Shown here piece by piece: positions 17,701-42,439 of a DNA stretch of 64,000 nt (position 1 is its first letter; every line of letters starts with the position of its first letter). The DNA comes from Nymphaea colorata. Its lineage: Eukaryota. Position numbers and translations under genes: made by a program. Under the pieces are notes generated by a model. It was not told the origin of the DNA and ran no database searches. It saw nothing but the letters and a program-made list of their open reading frames with translations. The stretch covers positions 5,766,001 to 5,830,000 of the forward strand of contig NC_045138.2 of NCBI RefSeq assembly GCF_008831285.2. Direction: 5' to 3'.

Positions 17701-20700
17701 ACATGCTCTATTTGGATGGTGACCACTTCTTGGACACTGGTGGATCATGCTGGCTTTCTCATGCACTATCCGTGGTAACTTAGCTATTTCTCATTCGTTG
17801 CAAATTCATTTGAACGTCTTAGTTTTAGTTACATCTTGGGTTAGATCTCCATTATTTTGTTCTGGATGCTCCAAAGTTTTACTTATATAAGAAGCTGTGA
17901 TGCTTACTTTATCTTAAATTTCTAACTTTTTGTGATGCTAACTATATGTCTGGGCCCATTGTTTTCCTATGAGAAAGCTTGCCACAGCTTTCATATTTTT
18001 GAAAGTGGTGGTCACCTGCCAAAAGTTACTGTTTTCAGTTAATCTTGTTTTACTAACAGGCTTCCTTTGTTGTCACACTCCTCAAGGATTTAAAATGTTG
18101 GTTTTCTCTTTATCATATTGGCTCCTCGTAGACAAACATAATGAATCTGCACCAGATTGCTTTCAGGTGGTTTCTTCATGATTTAAGAATTATAGTTTTA
18201 TTTATTTGGATTCTCTCTTCCCTCTTCTTTTGAGACAAAGCTTGCTCCTCACATTTTGGAAAGTGGTGGTTGTCTTGGTACCTGTTTCCTGCAAAAGGTT
18301 AACTGTTTTAACTTTTTAGTTAATATTGTTTTAGCAGGAGGCTTGCTTTGTTTTTGCACTCCGTAAGGATTTGAAATGTTTGTTTGCTCTTTGATCATTA
18401 GTTGGCTTCTCATAGACAAACTTAACGAATCTGCACCAGATTGCTTTCTGATGGTTCCGTTGGCATGATTTAGGAATTATAACTTTTGTTTTGGATTCTC
18501 TCACTCTCTCTCTCTTTTCCTATGATACAAAGGTTGCCATATTTGTCACATTTAGAGGATTGGTAGTCATGTTCATATCTGTTCCCTGCCAAAGGTTAGC
18601 TATTTTCAGCTAATCTTTGTTAATAGTGGGCTTGCATTGCTTTCATACTTCTCAAGGATTTAAAATGCTGGTTTTCACTTTAATGATTGATTGGGTCCTC
18701 ACAGACAAGCATACTGAATCTGCACTATATCGCCTTTTGAGGGTTCCTTTAGTGGTTCTCTCTCTCTCTATGAGAAAAGGCTTGCCATATCTGTCACTTT
18801 TGGAAATGGTGGTCATGCTGATAATCTGTTCCCTGCCAAAGGTCAACTGTTTTCAGTCAATTTATAGCAAGCTTGCTTTCTTTGACTCTTCAAGTATTTA
18901 AAATGTTTGTTTGCTCCTTGATCCTTGATTCACTCCTCATAAACAAGCACAATCTATCCCCATCAGATTGCTGCCGATTGTTCCTTTAGCATGATCTAAA
19001 ATTATAGCTTTTTATTTGGATTCATTTAATTGACCTACTTAAAGTTTACAATGCTGACATAGTATGTCTTTTGTCAACAGGCTGAAGCGATCCTTTGTTC
19101 AGATTGCTTTCATGATGGGAAATTCATTGTTGGCAATTCAAGTATAGATTTTTTGAAGGTGGATGCAGTAAAAGATTCAAATGATCTTGATAGTGACACC
19201 TGGACTGACCATGAGACACTTTTGTTGCTTGAGGCATTAGAAATTCACAATGACAATTGGAATGAAATTGCAGAGCATGTTGGGACAAAATCAAAAGCAC
19301 AGTGTATTCTTCAGTTTGTTCGTCTGCCTATGGAGGATTGTTTTCTCGAAAGTATTGAGTTTCCTACCTCAGTGTTTTCGTCTGATATTGCCAAAGAAGG
19401 AAGCAGAACTAAGTTTCCAATGGCCAATGGAGACTCTTTAGGTACTTGGATGTTTTACTTTTTTCTGATTTAATTTATTAAATGACGAGGTCATCCTTAC
19501 TGAATCCTTCACATTTCATGTCCATGACCATTTCTTGTGTGTGAATGGGGTTTCAGCTTGTCACCACGAGGAGGTCGATTCTGAAGGTCGTCTCCCTTTT
19601 GCAAATTCTGGCAATCCACTTATGTCTGTGGTAGGTCTTTATGTCCCTTCTTGTGTCTGTCATCTATATTTTCTGCCAACAGAATTTATCTTAGACAAAA
19701 ACTTGAACCAGGGTATATATTATTTTATTGTTCTAAGTTGTTTTTTTTTTCTTACTTTTTTTTATAAGAAGGAATTTGTGCAGTAAGAAGCTAACTTTTT
19801 CTTCCTTCAACATCATTGTTTTCCTGAATTAGATCCTTATCTGACAACATCAGTCTATAATGAAGTTAGGCGATTAAGCTATTATCCAACATGGAACAGT
19901 TATAGAAAAAAATTGAAGTAGAGGACTATGCTTCCAAAGTTTTTAATGTCAAAACTTCAAGGATTAAAAATAATAAATGGCAAAATTTAATGAACCTATG
20001 AGTCATTTGACAACACTAGTCTTGCGGAAAGTGAGTTATTGTACATCTGTCTGTAGATTGTGGACATACTTGTGGTTGATTGCATCAACATGGTTTACAT
20101 TGAATTTGGCTAGTCAGAATTTGCATCAGGACCTCCTTAAGTTGCCGTTGTGTATGTAGCAGGTGGGCTACCACTTTGACTGGTCTTTACCAATTCATTG
20201 TTAGCAACATGAATCTCACAGTGGAAAAAGGAAAATAAAATATTCATTTATAGGCTGTGCGATTATCTATTTGTGATGACCAAATATCCTATTTGATAGC
20301 TCAATGTTTTCATGCAACATGTTTGTGCTAGATAAAGGAGGTGAATGTTCAAAACTTCAATGATCTAGATCTTTAACGACAAAAAGGCTTCATAAATATA
20401 TGTTGAAACCTCCCTCTTCTTTCTTCAACAAACACCTGCATTTTAGGACGACAATTCCAAGATGTAAAATAGGAAAATATGTTGCTTAAATTGGTTTTGA
20501 TAAGAGATATGAAGAAAGGAGATAACAACATACAACAGAAACAAAAAGAAGTACTAGATAAATGCATTACAGAGAAATCGAGAACAATAGTTATTCATCT
20601 CAGATATCGTCAGATATGCTGCTTCTTGTTGTTTTTATCCTTTTCATCTTGGGACAGTCCTTTTTCTCTGCATTGAGGCTCTGTATGCAGGAGCTTGATC

Positions 20701-35381: not shown

Positions 35382-35821
35382 TGTTGGGATTTCTTCCCAT
35401 AGCGCATATACAAAACCAAATGTATATACTCTAAGCAGGATCATGCTCATGCTAAATCATTGAAATAAACGAAACCTTAAACTGAAGCGGAAGCGTACCT
35501 GAATCCATCTGATCTTTCAGGGTACGTGCGGTGCGCGTGAGGTCTCTCTCAGATGGGGAAGAGAAAACCCTAGAAACCAAAAGCAACTGTTCGCACGACC
35601 CCAGGGACCACTACCATTATATAATGAGGACAATTACAGATTCAACCCATCAAAGAGTCCGTAATTGCGTATTGGTATCTATACATTTCAAAATTACCCC
35701 ATACCATCTAAAATGACGTAATATCCCAAAATGCAATCACTTAAGCGGATATTTACGTTAAGACAGCCATAATGTCTGAAATTCCTCATAGACATATGCC
35801 GGCCCACCAAATGATCTTACA
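35382..35821 (-). repeat. 3' LTR (440 bp)
   Basis: Copy of the 5' LTR with about 10 transitions (counted by eye) and a 28-bp deletion; adjacent to the PPT. Confidence 0.95.
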
Positions 35822-36215: not shown

Positions 36216-38283
36216 CTAAACCAGCACATCATCTAAGGATAACACCCCCATATGAACAACATGTTCATGAAAGACCTTAGGTGTTAAACCCTTGGTAAGC
36301 GGATCCGCAATCATAGAGTTTGTCCCAATATGCTCTAAAGACACCTGACCATTCTGTATCCCCTTTTTAACAGTCCAAAAACTTAATGTCGATGTGCTTC
36401 GACTTTGACAAACTGTGGCTGTTATAAGAGTACATAACTGCTGAATTATTGTCACACAATAACCTTAGTGGTCTTTCTACACCATTCATAATGCGCAGCC
36501 CCGTGACAAAATTCCGCAACCACAAAGCATGATTGGATGCCTCGTAACATGCTATGAATTATGCTGCCATAGTTGAAGTAGCTACAAGTGTCTGTTTGAC
36601 ACTTTTCCATGATATAGCTCCTCCAGCCAACAGAAATACATAGCCTGAAATAGACTTGCGACTGTCTTGGCATCCAGCAAAGTCAGAATCTGAATACCCA
36701 ATGATCTCCAACTGGTCTGATTTCTTGTATGTGAACATAAAATCTTTTGTTCTTTGTAAGTATCTCAATACTCTTTTGGCTGTTTTCCAATGATCCATAC
36801 CTGGATTACTTAAGTATCTGCCTAACATTCCCACGATAAACGCAATATCCGGACGAGTACAAACCTGAGCATACATAAGGCTTCCCACAACAGACGAATA
36901 GGGAATCCTTTCTATTTCCTTAGATTCGATTTCACTTTTAGGGCACTGTTTGAGACTAAACTTGTCTCCTTTAGTAACTGGAGTATCTCTTGGTTTACAA
37001 TCCTTCATGCCATATCGCTGAAGCACCTTATCAATGTAGGTCTTTTGTGATAATCCAAGAATACCCCGAGAACGATCTCGAAATATTTGGATTCCTAATA
37101 CAAAAGATGCATAACCAAGATCCTTCATGTCAAACTTTGATGACAAAAATTTCTTAGTTTCATGTAATGTGCCCACATCATTACTCGCCAGCAATATATC
37201 ATCGACATATAGAACCAGAAAGATAAATTTACCCCTACTGAACTTATGGTACACACATTCATCAACCATATTGGTCTCAAAGCCAAATGAAACTATAGCT
37301 TGATGAAATTTGTAATACCATTGACGGGAAGCTTGCTTTAGCCCATAGATAGATTTCTTAAGTTTGCAAACCATTTTCTTTGCATTTCCTGAAGCAAAGT
37401 TTTCTAGTTGCACCATATATATTGTTTCATCAATGTCTCCATTTAGAAACGCTGTCTTAACATCCATCTGATGCAGCTCTAAGTCAAAATGAGCCACAAG
37501 TGCCATTATGGTCCTGAAAGAGTCTTTCGACGAAACTGGAGAGAAAGTCTCTGTATAATCAATGCCTTCCTTTTGAGTAAAGCCCTTTGCAACAAGACGT
37601 GCCTTATACATTTCGATGTTTCCTAATGAATCCCTCTTGGTTTTAAATATCCATTTACAACCAATGGGTTTCACACCTTCAGGCAAGGGAACAACATCCC
37701 ATACGTCATTGTCCATCATGGACTTTATTTCCTCACTCATGGCATCTATCCACTTATGAGATTTAGAACTCTTTATTGCTTGCTGGAAGTTAATAGGATC
37801 ATCTTCCATTAAGCCCATATCAACATCATGTTCTTGGAGATCGACAAAATCATTTGAAATTGTATTTCTCCTCTCTCTAATGAATCTCCTCAGTGGCACT
37901 TCTACTTGATTTTCTTGAGGTTGTTGAGTTTGTTCTTCAGTATGGAGATCGACATCATTGCCTTCTTCTGAATATGTTGATGAAACAATTGCAGGAATGA
38001 ATACCTGACTGTTGCTTACAACACCTGTATGAGTGGACTCAGGTCCATCTTCAAAGGCAATGTTTCTAACCTGATCACCTCCCCCAAACTCAATATCCTC
38101 AAAGAAATGGGCATTTCCCGTTTCAAAGAAAGACTTACTGGATGGATTATAAAACTTATAACCCCTTGACCTTTCAGAATACCCAACAAAGTAACAGCTA
38201 ACCGTCTTAGAGTCCAGTTTTCTTTCGCTTGGCCTATATGGCTTTGCTTCAACTGGACATCCCCAAATATGAAAATATCTCAT
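36216..38283 (-). pseudogene. Copia integrase C-terminus, reverse transcriptase and RNase H (nonsense codon and frameshift in RNase H)
   Basis: FHIWGC..CYFVGYSE; RT KARLVAKGFTQKEGIDY, QMDVKTAFLNG, LYVDDILL; RH GYSDSDFAG..ISWKS. TAA at 36559-36561 falls where a Glu codon is expected, and a frameshift near 36378 precedes MIADPLTKGL. Confidence 0.92.
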
Positions 38284-38437
38284 ACTAGGCGTTTTGCCTG
38301 TCCCAAATATGAAAATGTCTCATACTCAGGTCCATTTTCTTTCGCCCGCCCGCCTGCGTGCTGTGTTCGGTTTTTGGACCGGGTCGGGTCCTGTCGGACC
38401 CGACTCGTATCCATGCGGTTTAATTTTAAAGAAACGG

Positions 38438-39944
38438 CTTTAATCATTTTGCCTAATTGATTCTCAACTTCGGCTTTAAATGACTTGAAAACGTCTAAGG
38501 ATTGAGACTTCTCATGAATCAAATACAGGTAACCATAACGAGAATAATCGTCTATGAACATGATAAAATACTGTTGTCCATTCCAACAAGCCGTAGGGAA
38601 TGGACCACAAACATCCGTATGAATCAGTTCTAAGACGTCTGAAGCTCTACTTGCACCTGTTTTCTTAATGTTTATTCGTTTTCCCTTTATACATTCTATG
38701 CAAACATTAAAGTCTGCAAAATCAAGGGACCCAAGAATTCCATTTGACATAAGCCTTCTTATTCTCTTTTCAGAGATATGTCCTAAGCGCCTATGCCATA
38801 ACATAGCAAAATTCTCATTGGCTAATTGTCCTTTAGTACCACTGGATGTAACATGCAAGGTCTCATGATATGAAGCAACTGTATCAAGCAAATAGAGGTT
38901 ATCGCTACTAGATAAAGAACCAGTGACAATCAAATTTGAATGCAGAAACAACTTGAATTTATTTCCTCCAAAAGAACAATAGTAACCAAATTTGTCCAAT
39001 GAGGAAATAGAAACTAGATTCCGTCTAAAAGACGGCACCACATAAGTTTCTGTCAAATTCAAATAACAACCAGTCTTTAACAATAACCGAAAATCTGCTA
39101 TGGCTTCAACTTTTGCCTTCTTGCCATCGCCCACATAGATGAATCTTTCAGCATCATTTGACGTTCGACAATTTAGGCAGTCTTGCATAGAGACACTTAT
39201 GTGAGTAATAGCACCTGAATCTACCCACCAAGTGTTTCCGGGTACTGAAGTTAAATTAACCTCAGAACAAAACAAAGTGAGAAGTGTATCATTCTTTTCA
39301 CGCCATGCGTGAAACTTAGTACAATCCTTCTTTATATGACCTTTACCCTTACAAAAGAAGCAGCCTAAAAGGCCTTCCTTATGCTTCTTCTGTTTCTTAA
39401 CGGATGATTGGTCAATGGCAACTTCTATAACTGTCTTTCTTTTCTTACTTATAAGAATCGAATCATTTATCTCAATAATAGTACTCAAATTTGCAAATAT
39501 CATGGAAACAGAACTCACTGTATAAAGAACAAACCAAAATACCAAACATGCTCACAATCAATACATGTACAAAGATGAAATAACAAATATAAATGAATTT
39601 AAACATAATGGCCCAAAACCCATCACAAGGTACCGGTGCAACGCTAATATCCAATCTTTGGATTGAAATATTAACTGCAAGTGGCATTCTTGGTCAACAA
39701 TGAATATAGATAATTAACCCTGTCAAACAACGAACCTATCTTTGGATTGACTCGCTATTCACATGGAAAGCTGAAAAATTATCACACATTCATTGCCCTG
39801 TATACTTAAACCTGACCAAACAACAATCCTCCTTTGGGCTGATCATTGTTCGCATGGATCAAGTATACTATCATCTAATATTTAAAACAAGCAAATTCGT
39901 ACAACAGAGGTCACTTTGGCGACATAAAATACAAACTTACTCAT
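38438..39944 (-). pseudogene. Copia gag (internally deleted), protease and N-terminal integrase; putative intron 39518-39940
   Basis: Zinc knuckle CFFCKGKGHIKKDC, protease WWVDSGAITH, GAG-pre-integrase LWHRRLGHIS, integrase LELIHTDVCGPF..FIDDYSRYGY. The integrase breaks off at KMIKAV (38437). ATGA|GTAAGT donor and TTTATACAG acceptor give an in-frame start. Confidence 0.85.
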
Positions 39945-40099
39945 TTCAAACAACAGACATAGCTAAAGATCAAATTCATAATCCAAACATTCATCTAAAG
40001 CACATACACAATTTGCCCAATATTGAATCCAAAACCAAATGATTCAATGATATGGGCCCAAAAGAGACCAAAATTTTATAAACCGATACCATAATTGTG

Positions 40100-40600
40100 T
40101 TTAAGTGGGTCAAGAACCACTGAATCGGCCTTAAAGTGGCCCTTATCGTTCTTAAACCGCAACTAGAACACCCACATGCCCCTAAATAGAGCTGAACCGG
40201 TCAAAAATTGGACAAACCGGTCAAAAAATAGACCGTATCGGTTCTAAAACCCACTGAACTGGTTAAAAATGGCTAAAAAACGGTTCCAGAACTCAATGAA
40301 CCGGTCTGAAAATGCCCGAATCGGTTCGAAAATCAACTTAATCAGTTCTGAAATGCTAGAATCGGTTCTAAAACTGAATGAACCGGTTCTGAAAAGCCCT
40401 GAATCTGTCCGAATCGGTTCTCAAATGAATGAACCGGTCCCAAAATGGTTCGAATCGGATCTGAAAGGTCCGAACCGGTCCCTAGAAGGTCCGAACCGGT
40501 CTGAATCAGATTGAATCGGTTTTGAATCGGATTGAACCGGTCTGAAATCGAATGAACCGGTTCGAGTCTTTTCCAAAACCGGTTTAAAAAATGAACCGTT
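40100..40600. repeat. Degenerate GAACCGGT/GAATCGGT minisatellite in the copia 5' leader
   Basis: Many copies of the gaa(c/t)cgg(t) motif at roughly 10-22 bp spacing. Confidence 0.8.
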
Positions 40601-40865
40601 TCTTTAAAATTAAACCGCATGGATACGAGTCGGGTCCGACAGGACCCGACCCGGTCCAAAAACCGAACACAGCACGCAGGCGAGCGGGCGGAAGAAAATG
40701 GACCTGAGTATGAGACATTTTCATATTTGGGATAGGCAAAACGCCTAGTATGAGACATTTTCATATTTGGGGATGTCCAGTTGGAGCAAAGCCATATAGA
40801 CCAAGCAAAAGAAAACTGGACTCTAAGACGGTTAGCTGTTACTTTGTTGGGTATTCTGAAAGGTC

Positions 40866-41461
40866 AAGGGGTTATAAGTTTTATAATCCATCCAGTAAGT
40901 CTTTCTTTGAAACGGGAAATGCCCATTTCTTTGAGGATATTGAGTTTGGGGGAGGTGATCAGGTTAGAAACATTGCCTTTGAAGAGGGACCTGAGTCCAC
41001 TCATACAGTTGTTGTAAGCAACAGGTATTCATTCCTGCAATTGTTTCATCAACATATTCAGAAGAAGGCAATGATGTCGATCTCCATACTGAAGAACAAA
41101 CTCAACAACCTCAAGAAAATCAAGTAGAAGTGCCACTGAGGAGATCCATTAGAGAGAGGGACTCCTCTCTCTAATGGATCTCCTCAGTGGCACTTCTACT
41201 TGATTTTCTTGAGGTTGTTGAGTTTGTTCTTCAGTATGGAGATCGACATCATTGCCTTCTTCTGAATATGTTGATGAAACAATTGCAAGAATGAATACCT
41301 GACTGTTGCTTACAACACCTGTATGAGTGGACTCAGGTCCCTCTTCAAAGACAATGTTTCTAACCTGATCACCTCCCCCAAACTCAATATCCTCAAAGAA
41401 ATGGGCATTTCCCGTTTCAAAGAAACACTTATTGGATAAATTATAAAACTTATAACCCCTT
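40866..41461. repeat. ~295-bp-arm inverted repeat (4-nt loop) of integrase sequence inside the copia 5' leader
   Basis: 40866-41159 is the reverse complement of 41164-41461, with loop GACT; 41162-41461 is also a direct copy of 37868-38167. Confidence 0.95.
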
Positions 41462-41957
41462 TTCTTACCGATTTTGTGTGTTGCAGCGGCGACGAAGCCA
41501 CCGGCGGGCCGCCGGAGACCGTGGGTGGGTGCCTGAGGGTCGCACGGCCCTGTCCGGCGACAGGTAAGTCGCCGGCAGGCCTTTGACCGATGTCGCCCTC
41601 CCTGCCGTCGCCCTTTCCCTACCTCTTTTCTTCAATGGCTGCGACGGACGAAAAGGTGTTCACCTGCAGGCCACCCAACAGCGTGGGTGGCCGCTGGTGG
41701 GTCGCGCTAGGACGGCTGGAAGCCGTCCGTCGCCTTCCGGCGACAGTCGCCCGCCTAAAACCTGCCGTCCCTTACGCCATACCCTCTGCATCCTTAGGCG
41801 GCTGCAGCGGAAGCCCGACGACTTCCGTTGCTTCCCACGCCAATTTTGTTTTTTTTTTTTTTGAAAAACTTGCAGCCGAAGAACCAAATGAGGAACATCC
41901 GAACGGGAAACAACGCACAAAATCATCCAAAAATCAATGATTTAACGAAGAACATAG

Positions 41958-41969
41958 GCTCTGATACCA
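41958..41969 (-). promoter_or_regulatory. Primer binding site complementary to initiator tRNA-Met
   Basis: TGGTATCAGAGC on the - strand, 2 nt after the 5' LTR. Confidence 0.93.
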
Positions 41970-41971
41970 AA

Positions 41972-42439
41972 TGTTGGGATTTCTCCCCATAGCGCATATA
42001 CAAAACCAAACGTATATACCCTAAACAGGATCATGCTCATGCTAAATCATTGAAATAAACGAAACCTTAAACTGAAGCAGAAGCGTACCTGAATCCATCT
42101 GATCTGGTGCACAGGAAGATCGCAGCAGGGTCTTCCAGGGTACGTGCGGTACGCGTGAAGTCTCTCTCAGATGGGGAAGAGAAAACCCTAGAAACCAAAA
42201 GCAACTGTTCGCACGACCCCAGGGACCACTACCATTATATAATGAGGACAATTACGGATTCAACCCATCAAAGAGTCCGTAATTGCGTACTGGTATCTAT
42301 ACATTTCAAAATTACCCCATACCATCTAAAATGACGTAATATCCCAAAATGCAATCACTTAAGCGGATATTTACGTTAAGACAGCCATAATGTCTGAAAT
42401 TCCTCATAGACATATGCCGGCCCACCAAATGATCTTACA
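41972..42439 (-). repeat. 5' LTR (468 bp)
   Basis: TGTTGGGAT...GATCTTACA on the + strand; direct repeat of 35382-35821; adjacent to the PBS. Confidence 0.95.

What the first reader, a model, noticed from the sequence alone, without database searches (positions are those of the whole stretch)
39637..39950. Array of four long C(CAAA)G-tetraloop RNA hairpins in the copia gag leader intron
Seen: on the element sense (-) strand, four stem-loops share an identical CAAA loop closed by C-G. The loops lie at 39915-18, 39833-36, 39741-44 and 39657-60 (spacing 82, 92, 84 nt), and the hairpins span ~39881-39950, 39800-39868, 39721-39763 and 39637-39679. The stems differ in sequence but all pair, and many pairs are G-U on the - strand (A-C mismatches on +). 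This points to selection on sense-strand RNA structure rather than DNA palindromes. Inference: this is a repeated protein-binding RNA module such as a Gag/nucleocapsid packaging or dimerisation signal. Being inside an intron, it would be kept only in unspliced genomic RNA, as retroviral psi is. I know of no description of this module in plant copia elements.
Basis: partly seen in the sequence, partly recalled or inferred. Interest (0 to 1): 0.88.

Follow-up and report, generated by a model that had tools for sequence, protein, structure and literature searches.

The report
Conserved hairpin array in plant retrotransposons
A widespread group of plant jumping genes keeps four to eight predicted RNA hairpins with the same four-letter loop inside a predicted intron, and these likely act as docking sites by which the element's own coat protein recognises the RNA to be copied, a signal not yet pinned down in plants.

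Summary
Confirmed and extended. Four C(CAAA)G hairpins lie at the stated places and fold on the element's sense strand only (z -7.8 vs -0.55). The copy is a dead, rearranged copia element, but the array belongs to its whole lineage: a model of hairpin 2 hits 61 of 61 related loci with enough upstream DNA, always on the sense strand before gag. Stems covary (47 compensatory events on a tree vs at most 19 in controls; G-U 374 vs A-C 102) while loops stay CAAA. The array sits just before the acceptor of a predicted intron whose donor and gag start codon lie in the 5' LTR, so splicing would remove primer site and array together. One family amplified it to 4-8 hairpins, including six copies with shared reverse-transcriptase deletions; one element switched three of four loops to CGAA. 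No Rfam family or paper found. Best reading (0.55): multivalent Gag-binding signal that selects unspliced RNA for packaging. Rivals: splicing switch, nuclear export element. Binding, packaging and splicing are untested.

The parts
41972..42439 (-). 5' LTR (468 nt, TG...CA)
   Evidence: 430 matches, 10 mismatches, 28 gap columns against the 3' LTR; 5-bp target duplication CTTTT on both sides
42089..42098 (-). predicted first coding exon inside the LTR: start codon, two codons and one base, followed by a GT donor at 42088
   Evidence: same motif in 12 of 19 distinct LTR ends; public gene models P0137, P0106, P0221 begin with it
41958..41969 (-). tRNA-Met type primer binding site, inside the predicted intron
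   Evidence: TGGTATCAGAGC; assignment to tRNA-Met from established knowledge
39518..42088 (-). predicted phase-1 intron GT...AG holding LTR end, primer site, leader and hairpin array (lengthened here by an insertion)
   Evidence: inferred, no read-level evidence
39873..39958 (-). hairpin 1, loop CAAA 39918-39915
39800..39868 (-). hairpin 2, loop CAAA 39836-39833; the unit that is tandemly amplified in one family
39692..39798 (-). hairpin 3, loop CAAA 39744-39741, with a long covarying basal stem
39631..39686 (-). hairpin 4, loop CAAA 39660-39657, 143 nt before the acceptor
39518..39545 (-). U-rich tract and CAG acceptor
38433..39517 (-). gag-protease-integrase remnant; most of the capsid part of gag is missing near 39450, zinc knuckle kept, integrase cut at 38433
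36219..38301 (-). integrase end, reverse transcriptase, RNase H (broken)
40596..41461 (.). inverted duplication of internal sequence inserted in the leader; specific to this rearranged copy or its sub-branch
35382..35821 (-). 3' LTR (440 nt)

Best explanation
The four hairpins are a lineage-wide, selected RNA structure of a plant copia group, and they likely form a multivalent binding platform for the element's own Gag protein that would mark intron-retaining RNA for packaging. Shown: sequence, fold, strand, covariation, position, variable copy number. Inferred steps: (1) the transcript is spliced from a donor in the 5' LTR to the acceptor before gag, giving an mRNA without primer site and array; (2) RNA that keeps the intron is the only form that can be reverse-transcribed; (3) long stems present 4-8 equal CAAA loops (and conserved internal loops) to several Gag zinc knuckles, nucleating the particle on this RNA; (4) because the array ends shortly before the branch point region, bound Gag may also hold back splicing and so shift output from mRNA to genome as Gag builds up.
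For: Loops fixed while stems turn over: 119 of 151 flank-anchored loops read CCAAAG, 24 are C-to-T variants typical of decay; leaders are 43-64% identical to the window's. 35 of 52 pairs change on both sides, 0 of 500 shuffles reach it; 33 compensatory events on a tree vs null mean 4.1, max 11; with the window's own fold 47 vs max 19, G-U 374 vs A-C 102. All 164 model hits in 392 kb are sense-strand and upstream of gag. Donor motif in 12 of 19 LTR ends, acceptor in the matching phase in 45 of 52; 3 of 260 stored proteins are gene models that start with the LTR exon. Six insertions with shared RT deletions keep 4-8 loops, and L014, without integrase core but with 99.1% identical LTRs, keeps four: the array travels with RNA mobilised in trans. 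L014 reads CGAA in 3 of 4 loops, seen in no other locus, and has Trp at a knuckle position where 0 of 106 other knuckles do.
Against: No binding, packaging or probing data. No read-level splice joint was seen (one search listed only the best 15 of 225 joints, none of them this one). [quoted passage not shown] The array keeps its distance to the acceptor (87-174 nt) and not to the primer site (380-1332 nt), which also suits a splicing role. The loop/knuckle link rests on one decayed element with no close relative (best 59%). The RT-deleted copies do not form one clade in a poorly resolved tree, and one has only 4 loops. Ser-Ala codons alone can give the acceptor phase bias.
Confidence: 0.55

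Rival explanations
1. Splicing switch only: the hairpins bind Gag or a host splicing factor next to the acceptor and set the ratio of spliced mRNA to intron-retaining RNA; packaging uses other signals.
For: Fixed distance to the acceptor, variable distance to the primer site; the element needs both RNA forms.
Against: Four to eight equal loops and their amplification exceed what one splice site needs; one family has an in-frame start at the acceptor and still amplified the array.
Confidence: 0.2
2. Nuclear export element: a host export factor binds the repeated hairpins and carries intron-containing RNA out of the nucleus, as retroviral constitutive transport elements do.
For: Lies only in unspliced RNA; loop conserved across families with 54-74% Gag identity, as expected for a conserved host ligand; export of unspliced retroviral RNA needs such elements (PMC5035971, passages).
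Against: Three loops of L014 changed together to CGAA and three of L009 read UAAA, easier to explain with a ligand encoded by the element.
Confidence: 0.13
3. Dimerisation or internal translation start: loops join two genomes, or the array recruits ribosomes to unspliced RNA.
For: Paired GACG tetraloop hairpins stabilise MuLV dimers (PMC5874298, passages); one family has a start codon right behind the array.
Against: CCAAAG cannot pair with itself; most families lack a start codon there and keep it in the LTR exon.
Confidence: 0.08
4. Not selected RNA: chance folding, DNA palindromes, transcription-factor sites or a neutral tandem repeat.
For: AU/G-rich strands fold easily; hairpin 2 does occur as a tandem repeat in one family.
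Against: z -7.8 on one strand only; G-U over A-C; tree-aware covariation; the four stems differ in sequence.
Confidence: 0.02

Closest known systems
Gammaretroviral psi/DLS (MuLV SL-C and SL-D, GACG tetraloop pair)
   Same: Repeated hairpins with one conserved tetraloop between primer site and gag; tied to genome selection (PMC5874298, passages).
   Different: Here 4-8 long AU-rich hairpins, loop CAAA not able to self-pair, no palindromic stem-loop shown; the predicted intron also removes the primer site and splits gag, so unspliced RNA is not predicted to be the Gag mRNA.
BARE1/BARE2 (barley copia, Angela lineage)
   Same: Separate RNA pools for translation and replication; a 104-nt intron at the gag-protease border gives Gag only; a non-autonomous partner keeps predicted packaging and dimerisation signals (PMC3735527, passages). 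This lineage has a matching ~108-nt intron.
   Different: BARE separates pools by two promoters; no leader intron or repeated tetraloop array appears in the passages read. The paper that predicts the BARE signals (Tanskanen 2007) was not seen.
EVD/Ty1-copia splicing of Arabidopsis (PMC5580714)
   Same: Splicing is used to balance copia products.
   Different: Recalled as an intron in the protease region; the passages searched mention no primer-site intron or secondary structure.
Repeated-loop packaging signals of RNA viruses (coronavirus SL5 loops, STNV AXXA loops) - recalled, no call
   Same: Several stem-loops with one loop motif read by a capsid or nucleocapsid protein.
   Different: Unrelated viruses and sequences; analogy only.

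Membership tests
Ty1/copia LTR retrotransposon | LTRs, 5-bp target duplication, order gag-PR-IN-RT-RH, RVT_2 | tested here: met
TAR lineage (REXdb) | self-priming in 89% of members | tested here: not met
   tRNA-Met type site in window and relatives vs PMC6317226 Additional file 5
Bianca lineage (REXdb) | half-tRNA-Ile primer site | tested here: not met
Ikeros or Angela lineage (REXdb) | tRNA-Met primer site | tested here: met
   shared with several lineages, so not diagnostic
Ikeros or Angela lineage (REXdb) | placement of RT/RH/INT among reference domains | not testable with these tools
   REXdb sequence file too large to read; Ikeros is my recalled guess
Retroviral-type packaging signal (psi) | structured RNA between primer site and gag | tested here: met
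Retroviral-type packaging signal (psi) | absent from spliced RNA | tested here: inconclusive
   splice sites conserved and in phase, three gene models agree; no reads across the joint
Retroviral-type packaging signal (psi) | specific Gag/NC binding; needed and sufficient for packaging | not testable with these tools
   needs bench work
Kissing-loop dimer initiation site | self-complementary loop | tested here: not met
   CCAAAG and CAAA are not palindromic
Any Rfam family (incl. plant miRNA precursors) | score at the family threshold | tested here: not met
   window element, nothing near threshold; 0 hits in 9 loci

The most novel reading that the evidence does not exclude
The array is a Gag-read RNA barcode that couples splicing to packaging: Gag bound to 4-8 loops blocks the acceptor and captures that RNA, loop letters co-evolve with the zinc knuckle to set family specificity (CAAA, CGAA, UAAA), and parasitic copies add hairpins to win Gag from autonomous ones.
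Probability: 0.25. Interest if true: 0.9.

Novelty: new variant of a known kind. Interest (0 to 1): 0.76.

Why it matters
How plant LTR retrotransposons choose RNA for packaging, and how non-autonomous copies borrow Gag, is inferred mostly by analogy with retroviruses (PMC6844567, start of abstract, says little is known for LTR retrotransposons). This gives a defined, covariation-supported RNA family, absent from Rfam, with natural loop and copy-number variants that make the question directly testable. The predicted intron that carries primer site and array out of the mRNA would be a neat one-step way to separate message from genome, and it corrects the N-terminus of many annotated Gag proteins.

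Tried and rejected
No whole genome is held for the window, so copies in the same plant were not compared. Viral contigs: 13 pattern matches, 0 relatives. Genome contigs: 1 of 47 matches was a relative, with no upstream DNA. Sequencing runs: no RNA holder listed on record; two runs guessed to be RNA have contigs over the hairpins, but they may be DNA and contigs show neither strand nor splicing, so this was not used; read-level evidence for the splice is still missing. Rfam miRNA-like matches at 41104-41219 come from the inverted duplication, below threshold. L029 first looked array-less; its array lies 1.3 kb further upstream behind an insertion. L067 has foreign sequence in place of the array within its 332 nt. 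The z-scores use 8 shuffles each and are noisy; not relied on. In one search two strict donor hits (L023, L025) belong to a different LTR and were not counted; the value 95 for L001/L035 is a false match (128). In one search one L039 loop lies upstream of the primer site and was dropped. A search for relatives of the L014 knuckle found none above 59%. Literature: searches listed no paper on this array or on a primer-site intron in plant copia; the citrus Tcs1 paper (recalled to describe an LTR splice donor) is not held; subscription papers and REXdb Additional files 1 and 3 were not seen, so the LTR donor may be in print. Earlier scan findings: none on this sequence.

Full report
Observation. 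The - strand of 39630-39960 folds into four hairpins, each capped by CAAA closed by C-G, at exactly the loop coordinates given. The fold is far better than shuffles on the - strand (z -7.82, 0 of 100) and not on the + strand (z -0.55, 30 of 100); each hairpin alone behaves alike. 27 of 124 pairs are G-U. Hairpin 3 is longer than stated (39692-39798).

Setting. The hairpins lie in a copia element on the - strand: LTRs 41972-42439 and 35382-35821 (10 mismatches in 440 aligned bases, one 28-nt gap), target duplication CTTTT, tRNA-Met type primer site at 41958-41969, zinc knuckle, protease, integrase and RT domains. The copy is dead: about 200 residues of Gag and the integrase core are missing and an inverted duplication sits in the leader. 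The lineage is not TAR- or Bianca-like by primer type; Ikeros is a recalled guess that I could not test.

Relatives. An alignment of 14 Gag N-termini found 152 relatives in metagenome contigs, of which the tool kept 80 (54-74% identity). CCAAAG recurs at about -410, -325, -230 and -145 from the Gag match: 42 times in 4,650 nt of the array window of 12 representatives, 0 on the other strand, 30 in 86,510 nt elsewhere. 51 distinct leaders fall into 10-12 families, 43-64% identical to the window's. A covariance model of hairpin 2, built from 20 hairpins (window plus 18 loci), gives 164 hits in 81 loci, all sense-strand and upstream of gag, covering 61 of the 61 loci with at least 430 nt upstream (counted from the table), and one hit in the window. 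L001 has the Gag of a cluster with Populus and Salix members, L010 is 87% like a Hibiscus protein; the hosts of the rest were not determined.

Selection on RNA structure. On a sequence-only alignment of 25 of these leaders, 35 of 52 consensus pairs change on both sides; 94.2% of cells pair; 0 of 500 shuffles and no slid register come near. Counting events on a tree gives 33 compensatory changes against a null mean of 4.1, maximum 11 in 500. To avoid circularity I used the window's own fold and left out its branch: 47 events against a mean of 10.7, maximum 19 in 200; five other references gave 31-46 against maxima of 14-20; G-U outnumbers A-C 374 to 102. Loops are fixed: 119 of 151 flank-anchored loops (up to 2 mismatches allowed, near-duplicate loci left out) read CCAAAG and 24 are C-to-T variants. 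Rfam has no match.

The intron. ATG plus two codons, one base and a GT donor lie 66-129 nt inside the 3' end of the LTR in 12 of 19 distinct LTR ends, with decayed forms in three more, and in L014. A YAG after a U-rich tract lies in the matching phase in 45 of 52 distinct loci, 1 in another phase, 6 without a candidate (Ser-Ala codons can add to this bias). Three of 260 stored proteins, gene models from Populus nigra (XP_061961363.1), Trifolium pratense and Camellia sinensis, start with this LTR exon joined to Gag; their supporting evidence was not seen. So splicing is predicted to remove primer site and array together; no read across the joint was obtained. The array keeps 87-174 nt from the acceptor but 380-1332 nt from the primer site. 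A second, BARE1-like small intron behind the knuckle is precisely missing from the DNA of 2 of 32 loci listed (L014, L058), so the lineage does splice, and RNA that lost that intron but kept the leader intron was copied into DNA.

Natural variants. One family lacks hairpin 1 and carries 4-8 hairpins by tandem copies of hairpin 2. Six of its insertions share RT deletions (five both breakpoints, one the second) and have 8, 6, 4, 6, 7, 8 loops; two without the first deletion have 4 and 5. The trend is weak, and the tree does not resolve the deleted copies as one clade. L014 lacks the integrase core and has many stops, yet its LTRs are 99.1% identical and its four hairpins are intact. Its loops read CGAA three times and CGCA once; no other locus has CGAA; its knuckle has Trp where 0 of 106 others do, but no close relative could confirm this. 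L009 reads UAAA in its three visible loops, L075 in its one.

Mechanism. Shown: a selected, repeated, sense-strand RNA structure at a fixed place. Inferred: it exists only in intron-retaining RNA; equal single-stranded loops on unrelated stems are a binding surface; joint loop changes point to a ligand encoded by the element; survival in elements moved in trans points to a cis role in the genome RNA. I put a Gag-binding packaging signal, perhaps also damping splicing, at 0.55; a pure splicing switch at 0.2; an export element at 0.13; dimerisation or internal initiation at 0.08; no function at 0.02.

Comparison. It works like the GACG hairpin pair of MuLV (PMC5874298, passages) and fits the two-pool logic of BARE (PMC3735527, passages), but differs in loop, number, lack of self-pairing and in the intron that removes the primer site. 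Also read: PMC6317226 (passages, Additional file 5), PMC5580714, PMC13192763, PMC5035971 (passages), PMC6844567 (start of abstract in the listing). Ten searches listed no description of this array; closed journals and two large supplements were not seen. Verdict: real, lineage-wide, apparently undescribed; new variant of a known kind; interest 0.76.

Noticed in passing
L014:6784-6830 and L058:1291-1330: The ~108-nt intron behind the Gag zinc knuckle is precisely absent from these DNA copies, giving the Gag-only end seen in several public proteins; the window copy has no GT donor at the matching place (~39293).
   Followed up: partly
L027:5960-6000 (family L019, L023, L030, L048, L073, L078): The ten bases of the LTR exon (start codon included) recur right at the acceptor, so unspliced RNA has an in-frame gag start; other families have the last seven bases there. 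May reflect recombination with spliced cDNA or the intron's origin.
   Followed up: no
L023, L030, L039, L050, L053, L062 (RT region): Shared deletions in reverse transcriptase mark a non-autonomous subfamily that spread in trans.
   Followed up: partly
window 40200-40600: Cluster of AACCGGTT-type palindromic repeats with about 41-nt spacing in the leader, upstream of the hairpins; less well covered by other copies than the hairpins.
   Followed up: no
window 41104-41219 and 40596-41461: Perfect inverted repeat at the joint of an inverted duplication of integrase-region DNA; a possible source of hairpin siRNA against the family.
   Followed up: partly
window 37041-37160 (-): A 120-nt window inside RT folds well above mononucleotide shuffles (z about -7.7, 10 shuffles).
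   Followed up: no
window 18050-18983: Three to four diverged direct repeats with 240-290 nt spacing, and a similar set at 910-1282.
   Followed up: no
L081:1-2114: A plant copia fragment lies in a bacterial MAG of the genome collection; likely contamination.
   Followed up: no
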